Source: Eledone cirrhosa (lineage: Eukaryota). From it: a stretch of 64,000 nucleotides of DNA. The translations under genes were made by a program, and so were the position numbers. The stretch covers positions 86,366,001 through 86,430,000 of the forward strand of contig OZ024742.1 in the NCBI GenBank assembly GCA_964016885.1. The letters run 5' to 3'. The notes beneath the pieces were generated by a model. It was not told the DNA's origin, ran no database searches, and saw only the letters and a list, made by a program, of their open reading frames with translations. Shown piece after piece: positions 1 to 13,812 of the stretch (its first letter is position 1; each line of letters opens with the position of its first letter).

Positions 1-520
1 AGGACCATAGAATGAACCAAATCCTACGAACACACGATATCATAAAGAGCAAAAGACAATCTAAGTCAATGAAAAACATCCTAACACATTCCAAAGTACT
101 GCCAACCACATCAACGAAACCCACAGTAAAAAAATGCGATAGACCCAACTCTGGCATTTGCATCAACCTAATAGTGGGTTCGGAATTCTATTTCAAAGAA
201 GGACAACGTTTTATAGTAAAACACAATTTCACATGCGCATCAGAAAATCTAATATAAGTATTAACTTGCTCAGGTTGTCGAGAACAATACATAGGCCAGA
301 GTAAAAACAGCCTCCGCTAACGCATGACTGTGCATAGATCCCAAATTAAAATACGGGAATACAGGAAAATACCACTGAGTGAACACATTGATACCTGTGC
401 CGCTCAAAATCATCCCAACTTCAGAATCTTTCCCCTCTACAAATTTAAAGATAATGCCACCCACACCCAGCGTATCAGCAAGGAATCTTACTTTATTAAC
501 AAATACGGACCCCGTCTAAA
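1..520 (+). mobile_element. Penelope-like element 3' fragment, GIY-YIG endonuclease with Cys/His zinc motif (pseudogenised)
   Basis: ORFs 12-257 and 324-520 join across in-frame stops: KCDRPNSGIC...FTCASENLI*VLTCSGCREQYIGQS..SLR*RMTVHRSQI...PLSEH..C...KESYFINKYGPRLN. This is the typical C-terminal PLE GIY-YIG signature; homologous to 7830-8345. Confidence 0.85.
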
Positions 521-672
521 CACTTCTCCCTGCGACGAATCCACAACATACACACGTCAACATACATACCTACATCAGCATACATCTCTACACACATATA
601 AACACAATGACATACGTAAACACACATGTTCTATGGTGCAACACAAATATACACAAATTTGCATAACTTTTG

Positions 673-6410: not shown

Positions 6411-7139
6411 AAGATAAAAATAATGTCCTTTCACTCGGGTTTTGTTAGATCATTTTTATATTTTGTTTCATTACTACTTTAATTAAATATAATTTATACG
6501 CGTTATTGAGACGTCACACACAGGTGTTCAGATCACAGTCCTGTATAGATAATTTTCGTCTGGGATAGGATGTGCCTATGAAAAATGCTACCTCCGAACA
6601 CCAGGAAGCATTAGTACATTTTTTAGGCTTATTTTAGAAAAACAATTACCGCATTCCACGCTAGGAAATACGATAATATAATTTCATGGAGATATATATG
6701 TACAAAACAAATTGGAAACCTTATATTCACCATCCACGTACAATTTGGATATTATTTCATGCAAATCATTAAAATATAACTAATGCACATAAATATCTTG
6801 GACATATATATATATGATCACTAAATCTAATGTATATGAAACAATGGCAATTCAAATAATGTGGCACCATTTAGAAATACATGCAACAAGTACCCTATGA
6901 ATATCTAGATATCTCTTGAAATATAAATAGAAGTATGATAAATACATTTGCGAATATTTTGTAATTGTTTAAGCAACACCGACATTTTGTGATAAATCAA
7001 GAATTTTTAAATCAGAATACTGATTGTTCAGGCACATTAATGTTTTCTTACTTACTTTATACATCATATATGTGTATGAATATCAGAACAATATTCATGT
7101 TAACATTGATTGTTTGTTGAAGTTAAGATCAATGTATGT

Positions 7140-8341
7140 ATGTTTATATATATATATATATGAAAATAGGGAGAAAGAGACGATTATGAGGAAGAACAAT
7201 ATTTTTTTTCCTTTTTTTTGTGTCTCTCTCTCTCTTTTTTCTGGGTTAGAAAATGATTAAAACGAAATGTTTTACTTTGTGTGAAGTGTTTAGGTATTAG
7301 TTGATTTATTTATTATTTAACAATGGCATTTATTTATCTATTTATATCTTTAATTATTGTCTATTACCGGTTTCTGCATTTATATGCATTATCAAATGAT
7401 AGTGAAATGTATTAGTGTGGTGTTGCACATGTTAAACAGAAGGTGCAGAAAGAATAATGTTATATACAAACAAGGTTTAAGAAGTGAAAAGAAAAAAGAA
7501 AAAGGAAAAAAAAACCTTGCATAATGTGGAAAGTAAAAAGTCAATGTGGAAGAAAGGTTAATGTTATTTACAAGCACAGTCATTGAAGTTAAGCAGTTCA
7601 AAATGTGTTAATATCGCAAGAGTGTTTAGTTGAACCATGGTTCCGTGTAGAAGGCAAATGGTGGACTGTGGTTTGATATGATTTCCCTTTATAGAGAGTT
7701 AATATGCAGGGGAAGCAATTCTTGCTGCGTGATATTTAATTAATTTAAGAAAAAGGATTAGGTAGGGTGTGAGGGAGGTAACTCTTGTAAATATTTGATG
7801 GTTTGTTGCAGTTTTAGAAAGGTGCGAATTTCAGGGTAATTGAGTACTGGTTGAAATTCATTAATGAAATTTGCTTCCTTATTGGTGCGTTGGATGAAAG
7901 TAGCGTTGTCTATGAATTTGTAGATGGGGAAGATTTTAAAGTTTGGAAGTTGGTTGAGAGCACAATTGGCGATATGTTCACTAAATGCAATCTTTTTGTA
8001 TTCCTGTATTTTAATTTGTGATTTATGGACGGTCATACGTTGACGGAGGCTGTTTATTCTCTGTTATATATAGTGCTCTCGACAACCTGAGCAAGTCAAA
8101 ACATAGATAAGGTTTTCAGATGCACATGTAAAGTTGTGTTTAACTGTGAAACGTTGTCCTTTTTTTAAATGGAATGTCGAACCTTCTATTAGATTTATGC
8201 ATATGCCACAGTTGGGCCTTCCGCATTTTGTTACTGTAGGGTTTATTGTGAAGGTTTGTTGGATTTTGGCTTGTGTGAGGATGATTTTTTATGGATTTGG
8301 GTTGTCATTTTCTCTTTATGATGTGTGTTTGGAGGATATTG

Positions 8342-8345
<4 letters not shown>
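7140..8345 (-). mobile_element. Penelope-like element, 5'-truncated (GIY-YIG 7830-8345 plus 3' pseudo-LTR)
   Basis: Minus strand encodes KCGRPNCGIC...FTCASENLIYVLTCSGCREHYI...RMTVHKSQI...FSEH..C...KEANFINEFQPVLN; decayed HHR at 7361-7402; 5' end abuts (TA)n. Confidence 0.85.
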
Positions 8346-8404
<59 letters not shown>

Positions 8405-8411
<7 letters not shown>

Positions 8412-11400
8412 GTGAATATAGACATAGAATATTCGAAAATATTCTGTATGTTTATAATAAACATTTTGAAGACCTAATCGCTATAGAATAGAATACGTCA
8501 CGTATTACAATTAGATTCTCGATAAAAGCAAGGGAAGTAATCTACGCGTTTCATTCTCGTTAGAAATCATCAGGACTACATATCCAGTGCTTTTATCGAG
8601 AATGACACAGCTAGAGACTTATAGAATACTTAGCTGTGTACAGGAACTGGTTTGAAAGAGCGGTTGCCGGTCCGGCAGAAATTAGAAATTGGAATAAATG
8701 CTCTGAAATAGCGATATATATGTGAATATAGACATAGAATATTCGAAAATATTCTGTATGTTTATAATAAACATTTTGAAGACCTAATCGCTATAGAATA
8801 GAATACGTCACGTATTACAATTAGATTCTCGATAAAAGCAAGGGAAGTAATCTACGCGTTTCATTCTCGTTAGAAATCATCAGGACTACATATCCAGTGC
8901 TTTTATCGAGAATGACACAGCTAGAGACTTATAGAATACTTAGCTGTGTACAGGAACTGGTTTGAAAGAGCGGTTGCCGGTCCGGCAGAAATTAGAAATT
9001 GGAATAAATGCTCTGAAATAGCGATATATATGTGAATATAGACATAGAATATTCGAAAATATTCTGTATGTTTATAATAAACATTTTGAAGACCTAATCG
9101 CTATAGAATAGAATACGTCACGTATTACAATTAGATTCTCGATAAAAGCAAGGGAAGTAATCTACGCGTTTCATTCTCGTTAGAAATCATCAGGACTACA
9201 TATCCAGTGCTTTTATCGAGAATGACACAGCTAGAGACTTATAGAATACTTAGCTGTGTACAGGAACTGGTTTGAAAGAGCGGTTGCCGGTCCGGCAGAA
9301 ATTAGAAATTGGAATAAATGCTCTGAAATAGCGATATATATGTGAATATAGACATAGAATATTCGAAAATATTCTGTATGTTTATAATAAACATTTTGAA
9401 GACCTAATCGCTATAGAATAGAATACGTCACGTATTACAATTAGATTCTCGATAAAAGCAAGGGAAGTAATCTACGCGTTTCATTCTCGTTAGAAATCAT
9501 CAGGACTACATATCCAGTGCTTTTATCGAGAATGACACAGCTAGAGACTTATAGAATACTTAGCTGTGTACAGGAACTGGTTTGAAAGAGCGGTTGCCGG
9601 TCCGGCAGAAATTAGAAATTGGAATAAATGCTCTGAAATAGCGATATATATGTGAATATAGACATAGAATATTCGAAAATATTCTGTATGTTTATAATAA
9701 ACATTTTGAAGACCTAATCGCTATAGAATAGAATACGTCACGTATTACAATTAGATTCTCGATAAAAGCAAGGGAAGTAATCTACGCGTTTCATTCTCGT
9801 TAGAAATCATCAGGACTACATATCCAGTGCTTTTATCGAGAATGACACAGCTAGAGACTTATAGAATACTTAGCTGTGTACAGGAACTGGTTTGAAAGAG
9901 CGGTTGCCGGTCCGGCAGAAATTAGAAATTGGAATAAATGCTCTGAAATAGCGATATATATGTGAATATAGACATAGAATATTCGAAAATATTCTGTATG
10001 TTTATAATAAACATTTTGAAGACCTAATCGCTATAGAATAGAATACGTCACGTATTACAATTAGATTCTCGATAAAAGCAAGGGAAGTAATCTACGCGTT
10101 TCATTCTCGTTAGAAATCATCAGGACTACATATCCAGTGCTTTTATCGAGAATGACACAGCTAGAGACTTATAGAATACTTAGCTGTGTACAGGAACTGG
10201 TTTGAAAGAGCGGTTGCCGGTCCGGCAGAAATTAGAAATTGGAATAAATGCTCTGAAATAGCGATATATATGTGAATATAGACATAGAATATTCGAAAAT
10301 ATTCTGTATGTTTATAATAAACATTTTGAAGACCTAATCGCTATAGAATAGAATACGTCACGTATTACAATTAGATTCTCGATAAAAGCAAGGGAAGTAA
10401 TCTACGCGTTTCATTCTCGTTAGAAATCATCAGGACTACATATCCAGTGCTTTTATCGAGAATGACACAGCTAGAGACTTATAGAATACTTAGCTGTGTA
10501 CAGGAACTGGTTTGAAAGAGCGGTTGCCGGTCCGGCAGAAATTAGAAATTGGAATAAATGCTCTGAAATAGCGATATATATGTGAATATAGACATAGAAT
10601 ATTCGAAAATATTCTGTATGTTTATAATAAACATTTTGAAGACCTAATCGCTATAGAATAGAATACGTCACGTATTACAATTAGATTCTCGATAAAAGCA
10701 AGGGAAGTAATCTACGCGTTTCATTCTCGTTAGAAATCATCAGGACTACATATCCAGTGCTTTTATCGAGAATGACACAGCTAGAGACTTATAGAATACT
10801 TAGCTGTGTACAGGAACTGGTTTGAAAGAGCGGTTGCCGGTCCGGCAGAAATTAGAAATTGGAATAAATGCTCTGAAATAGCGATATATATGTGAATATA
10901 GACATAGAATATTCGAAAATATTCTGTATGTTTATAATAAACATTTTGAAGACCTAATCGCTATAGAATAGAATACGTCACGTATTACAATTAGATTCTC
11001 GATAAAAGCAAGGGAAGTAATCTACGCGTTTCATTCTCGTTAGAAATCATCAGGACTACATATCCAGTGCTTTTATCGAGAATGACACAGCTAGAGACTT
11101 ATAGAATACTTAGCTGTGTACAGGAACTGGTTTGAAAGAGCGGTTGCCGGTCCGGCAGAAATTAGAAATTGGAATAAATGCTCTGAAATAGCGATATATA
11201 TGTGAATATAGACATAGAATATTCGAAAATATTCTGTATGTTTATAATAAACATTTTGAAGACCTAATCGCTATAGAATAGAATACGTCACGTATTACAA
11301 TTAGATTCTCGATAAAAGCAAGGGAAGTAATCTACGCGTTTCATTCTCGTTAGAAATCATCAGGACTACATATCCAGTGCTTTTATCGAGAATGACACAG

Positions 11401-11512
11401 CTAGAGACTTATAGAATACTTAGCTGTGTACAGGAACTGGTTTGAAAGAGCGGTTGCCGGTCCGGCAGAAATTAGAAATTGGAATAAATGCTCTGAAATA
11501 GCGATATATATG
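8405..11512 (-). repeat. Tandem array of 10 x 310-bp HHR-containing units (retrozyme-like), left arm
   Basis: tgtgaatata recurs at 8411, 8721, 9031 ... 11201 (period 310); no differences between copies noticed; no ORF; HHR on the minus strand. Confidence 0.95.
8537..8579 (-). ncRNA. Type I hammerhead ribozyme (first of 10 minus-strand copies, every 310 bp)
   Basis: GUAGUC-CUGAUGA-U-UUCU aacg AGAA-U-GAAAC-GC-GUA-GAUUAC: 6-bp stem I, intact core, minimal palindromic stem III (ACGCGU). Confidence 0.85.
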
Positions 11513-12881
11513 TAAATACGTGACGTATTCTATTCTATAGCGATTAGGTCTTCAAAATGTTTATTATAAACATACAGAATATTTTCGAATATTCTATGTC
11601 TATATTCACATATATATCGCTATTTCAGAGCATTTATTCCAATTTCTAATTTCTGCCGGACCGGCAACCGCTCTTTCAAACCAGTTCCTGTACACAGCTA
11701 AGTATTCTATAAGTCTCTAGCTGTGTCATTCTCGATAAAAGCACTGGATATGTAGTCCTGATGATTTCTAACGAGAATGAAACGCGTAGATTACTTCCCT
11801 TGCTTTTATCGAGAATCTAATTGTAATACGTGACGTATTCTATTCTATAGCGATTAGGTCTTCAAAATGTTTATTATAAACATACAGAATATTTTCGAAT
11901 ATTCTATGTCTATATTCACATATATATCGCTATTTCAGAGCATTTATTCCAATTTCTAATTTCTGCCGGACCGGCAACCGCTCTTTCAAACCAGTTCCTG
12001 TACACAGCTAAGTATTCTATAAGTCTCTAGCTGTGTCATTCTCGATAAAAGCACTGGATATGTAGTCCTGATGATTTCTAACGAGAATGAAACGCGTAGA
12101 TTACTTCCCTTGCTTTTATCGAGAATCTAATTGTAATACGTGACGTATTCTATTCTATAGCGATTAGGTCTTCAAAATGTTTATTATAAACATACAGAAT
12201 ATTTTCGAATATTCTATGTCTATATTCACATATATATCGCTATTTCAGAGCATTTATTCCAATTTCTAATTTCTGCCGGACCGGCAACCGCTCTTTCAAA
12301 CCAGTTCCTGTACACAGCTAAGTATTCTATAAGTCTCTAGCTGTGTCATTCTCGATAAAAGCACTGGATATGTAGTCCTGATGATTTCTAACGAGAATGA
12401 AACGCGTAGATTACTTCCCTTGCTTTTATCGAGAACCTAATTGTAATACGTGACGTATTCTATTCTATAGCGATTAGGTCTTCAAAATGTTTATTATAAA
12501 CATACAGAATATTTTCGAATATTCTATGTCTATATTCACATATATATCGCTATTTCAGAGCATTTATTCCAATTTCTAATTTCTGCCGGACCGGCAACCG
12601 CTCTTTCAAACCAGTTCCTGTACACAGCTAAGTATTCTATAAGTCTCTAGCTGTGTCATTCTCGATAAAAGCACTGGATATGTAGTCCTGATGATTTCTA
12701 ACGAGAATGAAACGCGTAGATTACTTCCCTTGCTTTTATCGAGAATCTAATTGTAATACGTGACGTATTCTATTCTATAGCGATTAGGTCTTCAAAATGT
12801 TTATTATAAACATACAGATTATTTTCGAATATTCTATGTCTATATTCACATATATATCGCTATTTCAGAGCATTTATTCCA

Positions 12882-12883
<2 letters not shown>
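11513..12883 (+). repeat. Inverted arm of the 310-bp array, about 4.4 units
   Basis: Reverse complement of the same unit; ttgtaatacg at 11821, 12131, 12441, 12751; only two substitutions seen (12436, 12819). Confidence 0.95.
11752..11794 (+). ncRNA. Type I hammerhead ribozyme (further copies 12062-12104, 12372-12414, 12682-12724)
   Basis: gtagtc ctgatga tttctaacgagaat gaaac gc gta gattac; predicted cleavage after GUA at 11788; enclosed by 15-bp stem ttctcgataaaagca/tgcttttatcgagaa. Confidence 0.85.
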
Positions 12884-12912
<29 letters not shown>

Positions 12913-12959
12913 GTGACGAAACATAAGTCAATTGCATGAACTCATAATCCTTTATTTAG

Positions 12960-13011
12960 TGCTATATATATTTCGATGATAGCCATTGAATGGCTATGAT
13001 CTCCTCAGGCA
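12960..13011 (-). ncRNA. Type I hammerhead ribozyme candidate in PLE-like 3' end
   Basis: ugc CUGAGGA gau c auagccauu c aauggcuau c auc GAAA u auau a UA gca; stem I weakened. A PDGLN-like GIY-YIG terminus lies upstream on the same strand (about 13200). Confidence 0.6.
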
Positions 13012-13812
13012 GTTAGTCAGTTCTTAGATATGCCAGCTCTGTGTTTATAGTGTTGATGGTATCAGAGCCTGGGGACATATGAGCGTGTTAGGAATAATTT
13101 AAGGTTGTCAGCAGGAATAGTCTTAATTCTCATTGTTCAGTTTGTAGATGCTGGTAGGGTTGGTATTTGACCTCAAAGAGGCAGGTGGTGTTATAAAGTT
13201 CAAACCGTCAGGCAAGATGACAATAGTTCCATATGACTGATTTTCACAAAAAGCATTCCTGGTCAGATATATATTCAATTAAGGTTAATAGTATGAAATA
13301 GATACTACAGGTCATTCTTAAATTAAAGAATTTATGTGGAGTGATGATACTGAAAATTATGGTTAGAGTAGAAAATTTACAAATAAAAAGACTCATGTAG
13401 GTTGGCTTGCACATACACTCACACCCACCTCCACAGACACAGACACACATCCACACATACACATTGAGGAAATAATGTGGGGTGGTAATACTTAAAATAA
13501 TGGTTAGAGTTAAATACTTAGATAGTTTAGAAAATTCAGAAATAAATGGACTTATGTTGGTTGACTTATACATACACTCACATCTACCCCCCTCAGGCAC
13601 ACACACATCTACACACACACATCAATACAGGTGTGCATATATATATGTGTACGCACAAGTGCATATATATATATACAACAGAGGCTCCCAAATCCAAGTA
13701 TAAGGCAGACATAAAACTAGGTGGGTGTTATTTAAAAAAAAAGTAAAGTGGGTGTTTGGAAAAGTTATTGTTTAGACTAGACATATATATTTGTTATTGT
13801 TTAGATTATATA

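What the first reader, a model, noticed from the sequence alone, without database searches (positions are those of the whole stretch)
11495..11535. Inversion junction with microhomology; outer ends anchored in (TA)n
The forward arm ends gcgatatatatgt and the inverted arm would begin ttgtaatacg. The junction reads tatatatgta-aatacg, i.e. a shared tgt(a) plus one extra base. The left outer end falls at the unit's own TATATA and merges into genomic (TA)n; the right end also runs into (TA)n. The three breakpoints fall at different phases of the unit and none is at the HHR cleavage site. That fits a circular or multimeric template primed by annealing to TA repeats.
Basis: partly seen in the sequence, partly recalled or inferred. 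Interest (0 to 1): 0.72.

Follow-up and report, generated by a model that had tools for sequence, protein, structure and literature searches.

The report
Penelope-style double-primed retrozyme insertion
This junction joins two back-to-back arrays of a 310-base repeat with a predicted self-cutting RNA motif; the same layout at 77 insertions in this genome suggests that both ends of cut TA-repeat DNA were likely extended on one RNA, from two fixed start sites, by a borrowed Penelope-type transposon enzyme.

Summary
The junction is real in the assembly: 10.03 minus-strand units (8405-11513), one extra A, 4.42 plus-strand units (11515-12883), head-to-head, both 3' ends in (TA)n. The overlap is larger than reported (TGT[G]AATA against TGT-AATA). 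The unit is a young animal non-LTR retrozyme (4,101 exact ribozyme-core matches). Inner ends are uniform and avoid nothing; 36 of 60 clean junctions overlap by 2 nt or more (chance 18%). Both arms carry the same variants, so they likely come from one template; 13 of 74 pairs cannot be a fold-back copy. Best reading: dual target-primed reverse transcription at two protein-defined sites, then microhomology joining. Annealing to TA explains little (1-2 nt at most ends). Circles are likely for most, but six loci need a mixed multimer. No partner element, RNA or junction-spanning read was found. The scan reported this family before at other loci of this genome. New member of a known kind.

The parts
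8345..8404 (.). Left part of the (TA)n target tract, ending in a TG interruption (8403-8404)
8400..8411 (+). Left copy of the candidate target duplication (12 nt at most, 3 nt at least; its last 7 nt also fit the unit)
8405..11513 (-). Left arm: 10.03 identical 310-nt units, RNA sense on the minus strand; outer end at the 'short' site (phase 138, ambiguous 131-138), inner end at phase 130
11511..11518 (.). Head-to-head junction: TGT overlap, extra A at 11514, AATA overlap (gapped 7-nt homology)
11515..12883 (+). Right arm: 4.42 units, RNA sense on the plus strand; inner end at phase 37, outer end at the 'long' site (phase 165); two single-unit differences (12436, 12819)
11752..11794 (+). Predicted type I hammerhead (first plus-strand copy; one per unit): stem I 11752-11757/11789-11794, CTGATGA 11758-11764, stem II with a U-U pair at its base, GAAA 11779-11782, one-pair stem III with palindromic CGCG loop, predicted cut after GTA between 11788 and 11789
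   Evidence: sequence; fold z -5.2; not called by Rfam; motif layout from established hammerhead knowledge and PMC7229834 passages
12858..12883 (+). Penelope-type 'tail': the 26 nt (35 from phase 130) between the short and long sites, present at this end only
   Evidence: tail as described in PMC8557442, PMC3846280, PMC11167929
12882..12893 (+). Right copy of the candidate target duplication
12884..12912 (.). Right part of the (TA)n target tract

Best explanation
This is one insertion of a 310-nt non-coding hammerhead retrozyme, likely made by a Penelope-like (Neptune-type) reverse transcriptase-endonuclease that would cut a (TA)n tract on both strands and extend both cut ends on the same RNA, one from each of two fixed sites about 30 nt apart, after which the two cDNA ends were likely joined by a few bases of homology. 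Shown by sequence: head-to-head layout, one short and one long outer end per insertion, uniform inner ends, junction microhomology, shared variants in both arms, TA targets. Inferred: the enzyme, the staggered cut (target duplication up to about 12 bp), a dimer holding both sites of one RNA, strand displacement so that both primers can copy the same stretch, host end-joining at the junction. The template would be a monomer circle for most insertions (about 0.6) and a mixed multimer, linear or circular, for some. The extra A is a joining scar: an untemplated addition, a G>A change inside the gapped homology, or one base copied from the target, which itself reads TATATATGTA at 8397-8406; these cannot be told apart.
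For: 77 two-armed insertions, all minus-then-plus. One end at phase 120-139 and one at 155-172 in 76 of 76 scored and in the 77th read by eye; no short-short or long-long pair; also 9 of 9 two-armed loci among the first 10 loci found without regard to flanks. Inner ends uniform (chi-square p 0.12). 60 of 77 junctions lack inserted bases; 36 of 60 overlap by 2 nt or more (18% by chance), 21 of 60 by 3 or more (6.7%); 0 of 100,000 resamples reach the total even with the 17 inserts counted as zero. Both arms share locus-wide variants: 26 haplotypes in 71 loci, 18 seen once, chance of a match 0.16. Four loci share a single-unit variant across arms, 0.06 expected. 13 of 74 arm pairs nest in no register. 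Marker-bearing target duplications in 7 of 73, shuffled mean 0.67, maximum 4 in 300. The genome holds RT plus C-terminal GIY-YIG frames with a CX4CX2C linker. A purified Penelope-like protein cuts and extends both strands and starts at two adjacent internal RNA sites that bound the tail (PMC11167929, main text).
Against: No autonomous partner: none of 50 GIY-YIG loci carried this unit as its terminal repeat. No RNA, cleavage or circle was observed. In PMC11167929 start sites did not differ between strands, which would allow short-short and long-long pairs; the strict pairing needs a coupling not shown in vitro. In three loci the two arms start in different units (L075 by 2, L052 by 14, L062 by 4 or more), so adjacent sites on one unit are not the rule everywhere. 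Most single-unit differences are not mirrored (54 against 14 cells). Mirrored variants could come from later conversion between arms. 14 insertions have one arm only. 26 of 33 loci with a marker near an end gave no duplication match, and 2 of the 7 matches lie in periodic repeats. The 46-unit arm of L081/L082 shows a partial 27-unit repeat of variants, so length alone may reflect later expansion, not rolling circles.
Confidence: 0.7

Rival explanations
1. Hairpin intermediate: an antisense RNA or the first cDNA folds back on itself by microhomology and primes its own copy; the endonuclease then resolves the hairpin by cuts at the short site on one strand and the long site on the other and joins both to (TA)n.
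For: Proposed for Penelope head-to-head repeats (self-priming on an antisense template, PMC3846280 passages; tail from endonuclease resolution, PMC8557442 passages). It explains the strict short-long pairing, shared haplotypes, same-register mirrored variants (L074, L112, L119) and two junctions that fall on the unit's own 16-nt stem (L045, L099).
Against: The simple form (second arm is a copy of the target-primed first cDNA) fails at 13 of 74 loci where neither arm fits inside the other and at L062 and L075 by variant register. The freer form (both ends cut out of a longer hairpin) survives this test, but the two tail ends are reverse-transcription start sites on the sense RNA in vitro (PMC11167929).
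Confidence: 0.14
2. One reading: the cut TA tract anneals to the unit's own AU run and to other AT-rich spots, and these pairings, not fixed protein-defined sites, set the ends.
For: The window's left end has 6-7 nt of TA homology; 20 of 76 short ends fall at 138-139; the phase-130 class could be the same annealing with one dinucleotide slip; long ends prefer positions with 1-2 matching bases.
Against: The long site has no TA run, yet every two-armed insertion uses it once; other AT-rich spots of a 34.5% GC unit are not used as outer ends; a related family at 75-82% identity ends at the same long site.
Confidence: 0.08
3. Two successive insertions at this locus: TATGTA stands at all three breakpoints (8401, 11509, 12883), so the right arm may have come first with a 6-bp duplication and the left arm later beside it, the extra A being target sequence.
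For: The junction's TATATATGTA (11505-11514) equals the left target at 8397-8406.
Against: Nine of these ten letters are the unit's own; the other 76 junctions are direct arm-to-arm joins or carry short inserts rather than target tracts; independent insertions would not give one short and one long end 77 times, nor shared rare haplotypes.
Confidence: 0.05
4. Assembly artefact: a fold-back chimera of long reads or a misjoin inside a tandem array.
For: The arms are nearly identical repeats, where assemblers err.
Against: Chimeras would not give fixed, paired outer ends, one polarity, junction microhomology and target duplications across 77 loci. Copy numbers inside single arrays may still be off.
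Confidence: 0.03

Closest known systems
Animal non-LTR retrozymes (Cervera and de la Pena 2020, PMC7229834, passages; review PMC7761336, passages; Li, Clavereau and Pollet 2026, bioRxiv 10.64898/2026.07.22.740005, part 1 of 5 and passages)
   Same: Tandem non-coding unit in the 150-450 bp range, low GC, one type I hammerhead per unit with a weak palindromic stem III like axolotl HHR_Amex1, thousands of copies, proposed circle template and Penelope-like helper.
   Different: The passages read describe tandem arrays only; no head-to-head arms, paired fixed ends or junction microhomology. The 2026 preprint favours local amplification of a Penelope terminal repeat, whereas here each array is a dispersed, end-defined insertion. 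The 2020 paper's supplement could not be read and may show such loci.
Endonuclease-bearing Penelope-like elements, Neptune and Naiad type (PMC8557442 passages; PMC3846280 passages; PMC11167929 main text)
   Same: Inverted 5'-truncated copy joined head-to-head, 30-40 bp tail at one end, (TA)n bias, 8-10 bp duplications, two internal start sites.
   Different: No protein is encoded; both arms are many-unit arrays; the tail is strictly on one end of every two-armed insertion.
L1 twin priming and dual priming (PMC2837659 passages)
   Same: Both target ends prime; inverted and direct parts joined at their 5' ends with microhomology; target duplication.
   Different: No poly(A) start; the second start is fixed, not picked by homology; the arms overlap in template instead of leaving an internal deletion; it is the rule here (77 of 91 insertions), a variant in L1.

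Membership tests
Animal non-LTR retrozyme | Tandem repeats of 150-450 bp, low GC | tested here: met
   310-nt unit, 34.5% GC
Animal non-LTR retrozyme | Type I hammerhead in every unit | tested here: met
   Core, stems I and II and GTA triplet read from the sequence and fold; Rfam gave no hammerhead match, so the call rests on motif inspection
Animal non-LTR retrozyme | No protein coded | tested here: met
   Longest ATG frame 30 aa
Animal non-LTR retrozyme | Dispersed multicopy, mobile | tested here: met
   4,101 exact core matches, control 0; 721 and 667 forward-strand matches to the two end patterns
Animal non-LTR retrozyme | Expressed as linear and circular RNA; self-cleaves (likely as a dimer) | not testable with these tools
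   No RNA holder listed
Penelope-like insertion signature | Head-to-head inverted 5'-truncated copy | tested here: met
   77 of 91 insertions; all minus-then-plus
Penelope-like insertion signature | 30-40 bp tail at one end | tested here: met
   Modes 130 or 139 against 165, 77 of 77
Penelope-like insertion signature | (TA)n target bias | tested here: met
   66 of 74 both flanks (one flank often selected for); all 10 loci found without regard to flanks end in TA-rich tracts
Penelope-like insertion signature | Target duplication of about 8-10 bp | tested here: inconclusive
   7 of 73 marker matches against 0.67 shuffled; most targets are pure TA
Penelope-like element (autonomous) | RT plus GIY-YIG frame | tested here: not met
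   None in the unit; present elsewhere in the genome
Penelope-like element (partner) | An autonomous element sharing this terminal sequence | tested here: inconclusive
   Not found in 50 of the 150 listed GIY-YIG loci (10,595 candidates unscored beyond these)
L1 twin priming | First start at a 3' poly(A); second start chosen by homology; internal deletion between arms | tested here: not met
   Two fixed internal starts, overlapping arms

The most novel reading that the evidence does not exclude
These insertions record the unexplained Penelope transposition step in bulk: an enzyme dimer assigns one subunit to each of the two tail sites of a single RNA, so every two-armed insertion gets exactly one tail, and on a ribozyme-made circle the two enzymes chase each other round the same template by strand displacement, giving two inverted many-unit arrays from one 310-nt molecule.
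Probability: 0.4. Interest if true: 0.68.

Novelty: new member of a known kind. Interest (0 to 1): 0.45.

Why it matters
How Penelope-like elements make their inverted ends and tail is stated as open (PMC8557442), with self-priming on an antisense RNA as one published proposal (PMC3846280) and two internal start sites as the only biochemistry (PMC11167929). How animal retrozymes integrate is also untested. About 1,400 near-identical insertions of a 310-nt RNA give a large natural data set and a minimal substrate: the strict one-short-one-long rule, the shared haplotypes and the non-nesting arms already narrow the models, and they tie retrozyme movement to Penelope machinery by insertion anatomy rather than by sequence likeness. 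Every part is known separately, the single junction is ordinary for its family, and the scan has reported the family before, so the score is moderate.

Tried and rejected
DNA search of the own genome with one unit found nothing because common words are skipped; patterns were used instead. Rfam: no hammerhead match. An early impression from 10 loci that inner ends cluster at RNA hairpins did not hold in 153 ends. The first microhomology count (23 junctions with inserts) mistook haplotype differences for inserts; recounted against each locus's own unit it is 17. The first duplication measure was too loose; replaced. Reads: no RNA holder listed. No contig or read bridged the junction by 31 letters on both sides; a hole proves nothing and the runs may be other individuals. 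The pile of read ends near the long site in the reduced-representation run coincides with AATT sites and was not used. The empty allele could not be read: the tool skips repeats and the right flank is itself a high-copy repeat. Partner search among 50 GIY-YIG loci found only other small hammerhead elements. One search stopped with an error after the first array; three further arrays were not analysed that way. Rows dropped before the count of 77: the second junction of L041 (internal re-inversion) and the duplicate copy in L060; 3 of 17 unpaired arms are fragments of an older family; L082, L090, L041 (and L060 for flanks) were left out of flank, duplication and nesting counts. Two plus-then-minus neighbours (inside the L041 junction; a 23-nt older fragment in L086) are not tail-to-tail insertions. 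Three of four flagged arm discordances (L093, L099, L119) come from arm edges or one deleted base. Searches of papers for a description of two-armed retrozyme insertions listed none; subscription papers are not covered.

Full report
What is at the locus. The finding lies at the centre of a 4.5-kb insertion. A 310-nt unit is repeated 10.03 times from 8405 to 11513 without a mismatch, then, after one A at 11514, 4.42 times in the opposite direction from 11515 to 12883 with two single-base differences. The unit has 34.5% GC, no ATG frame over 30 codons and one hammerhead-like motif: stem I, CTGATGA, stem II with a U-U pair at its base, GAAA, a one-pair stem III capped by CGCG, and a predicted cut after GTA (11788/11789 in the first plus copy). 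Rfam does not call it; the identification rests on the motif, which matches the weak-stem-III form described for axolotl (PMC7229834, passages). By this motif the left arm reads on the minus strand and the right arm on the plus strand: the arms are joined at their 5' ends and both 3' ends run into (TA)n. Phases below count from the first base after the predicted cut.

The junction. The left arm stops at phase 130, the right starts at phase 37. The left arm would go on TGT-G-AATA; the right arm is preceded by TGT and begins AATA. The extra A may be untemplated, a G>A change within this homology, or copied from the target, which reads TATATATGTA at 8397-8406. Single added bases occur at 4 of 77 junctions.

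The outer ends. The left end is at phase 138 and shares 6-7 nt with the TA tract; the right end is at phase 165 and shares 1-2 nt. A TG that interrupts the tract is present on both sides (8400-8411 and 12882-12893), as expected from a target duplication of 3-12 bp.

The family. A 24-nt core pattern has 4,101 exact matches in the genome, the control none. End patterns give 721 and 667 forward-strand matches (reverse counts are inflated by overlapping matches), so about 1,400 insertions. I fetched 90 regions from the first 140 Mb of contig C1: ten chosen by the core alone, the rest by an end followed by TA. With the window they hold 77 independent two-armed and 14 one-armed insertions (dropped rows under Tried and rejected). 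All two-armed ones are minus-then-plus. In 76 of 76 scored, and in the last by eye, one outer end lies at phase 120-139 (modes 130, 139) and the other at 155-172 (mode 165); class limits were drawn after seeing the data, but the two groups do not touch. No outer end is within 20 nt of the cut. Inner ends are uniform (p 0.12), 3 of 153 within 5 nt of the cut (4.9 expected). Either arm may be the longer (short-site arm longer in 37 of 76).

Microhomology. Against each locus's own unit, 60 of 77 junctions have no inserted bases; 36 of 60 overlap by 2 nt or more (18% by chance) and 21 of 60 by 3 or more (6.7%); counting the 17 inserts as zero, 0 of 100,000 resamples reach the total. Several inserts are short copies of nearby unit sequence.

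One template. Among 71 loci with two simple arms there are 26 haplotypes, 18 seen once, and both arms carry the locus's fixed variants; two random loci match with probability 0.16. The one clear discordance is L062. Four loci share a single-unit variant between arms (0.06 expected): in the same register in L074 and L112, offset by 2 units in L075 and 14 in L052. L119 has the same two-haplotype order in both arms. These six loci need a template of unlike units, linear or a large circle, or later conversion between arms. Private variants fixed in every unit of both arms, on the other hand, point to a bottleneck through one unit, as a monomer circle would give. Arm length is weaker evidence, since the 46-unit arm of L081/L082 shows signs of later duplication. 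Most single-unit differences are not mirrored (54 against 14 cells) and probably arose during or after insertion. The window's own arms carry the commonest haplotype and cannot decide circle against multimer.

Fold-back. If the second arm were a copy of the first cDNA, one arm would fit inside the other in some register. At 13 of 74 loci neither does (about 7 expected if arm lengths are independent). A freer hairpin model with both ends cut out by the endonuclease is not excluded.

Target duplication. Marker-bearing matches occur at 7 of 73 loci, against a shuffled mean of 0.67 and a maximum of 4 in 300; 26 of 33 loci with a marker near an end did not match, and two matches lie in periodic repeats. 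This is modest support for a staggered cut of up to about 12 bp.

Machinery. The genome has many GIY-YIG matches (150 scored of 10,595 candidates); five frames tested carry an RT domain, four also scored GIY-YIG at the C-terminus, and four show a CX4CX2C motif before it, the linker described for Neptune elements and linked to microsatellite targeting (PMC8557442, passages). None of 50 such loci had this unit as its terminal repeat, so the partner is unknown.

Comparison with print. Penelope-like elements are known for an inverted 5'-truncated copy, a 30-40 bp tail at one end and (TA)n bias (PMC8557442), 8-10 bp duplications and head-to-head polarity, for which antisense self-priming was proposed (PMC3846280, passages). 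A purified Poseidon protein cuts and extends both strands and starts at two adjacent internal RNA sites that bound the tail, without homology to the target (PMC11167929, parts 1-2 of 4). Animal retrozymes are described as tandem arrays expressed as circles, with Penelope-like helpers suggested (PMC7229834; PMC7761336; bioRxiv 10.64898/2026.07.22.740005). L1 twin priming gives the same polarity but different start rules (PMC2837659, passages). Five searches listed no paper on two-armed retrozyme insertions; the supplement of PMC7229834 could not be read. Earlier agents of this scan reached a like reading at other loci of this genome (seen after my own reading was set); that is not independent evidence.

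Mechanism. Most likely (0.7) a Penelope-like enzyme cuts (TA)n on both strands; each 3' end primes on the same RNA, one at the short and one at the long site; both cDNAs run for several units, which needs strand displacement where they copy the same stretch; their free ends are joined by a few matching bases. The layout, pairing, microhomology and shared variants are shown; enzyme, coupling, circle and joining pathway are inferred. Rivals: resolved hairpin (0.14), ends set by TA annealing (0.08), two successive insertions here (0.05), artefact (0.03).

What could not be shown. No RNA run was listed; no record bridged the junction; the empty allele could not be read.

Verdict. Observation partly confirmed, interpretation partly supported. 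A new member of a known kind whose family-wide end pattern bears on an open question in Penelope transposition. Interest 0.45; the boldest reading (a coupled enzyme pair circling one RNA) has probability 0.4 and would deserve 0.68.

Noticed in passing
window 7132-8344 (minus strand; endonuclease part 7830-8300) and 3-530 (plus strand): Two 5'-truncated Penelope-like fragments with the CX4CX2C linker region and GIY-YIG end; the first abuts the TA tract in which the retrozyme landed.
   Followed up: partly
window 12913-13250: The right flank is another high-copy repeat with a degenerate hammerhead-like core on the minus strand at 13008; its copies end in TA runs near 13080. The insertion is nested between older elements of the same type.
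   Followed up: partly
window 41402 (+), 46115 (-), 25929 (-), 16589 (-): Further hammerhead-like cores of other families.
   Followed up: no
L151:290-705, L122, L166, L045:1688-1973, L033:4623-4709, L086:3118-3222: An older family, 73-84% like unit phases 59-212, with a different ribozyme part, ends at the same long site and shows the same two-armed layout; a third small element (L164:3130-3325, L160, L156) shares the ribozyme part instead. Tail and ribozyme modules seem to be exchanged.
   Followed up: partly
L053:1449-1720: A 272-nt foreign piece is captured at the junction; it matches 96-98% a repeat clustered on contig C25 (40 matches listed), beside what looks like a retrotransposon frame.
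   Followed up: partly
L119 (G000:C1:136719500-136725900): Both arms carry two outer units of one known haplotype followed by units of another: a mixed template copied twice from the same end.
   Followed up: yes
L052; L081/L082: Variants repeat at 7 units in L052 and partly at 27 units in the 46-unit arm of L081/L082: multimer circles or later duplication.
   Followed up: partly
L051, L067, L071, L072, L080 junctions: Inserted bases are short copies of nearby unit sequence, the kind of scar recalled for polymerase-theta end joining (the attribution is from memory).
   Followed up: no
L033, L101-L108, L113, L114 (short end); L048, L064, L095 (long end): One-armed insertions end mostly at the short site (11 of 14), with the 5' end joined to TA-rich DNA; L102 keeps an inverted stub of about 11 nt.
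   Followed up: no
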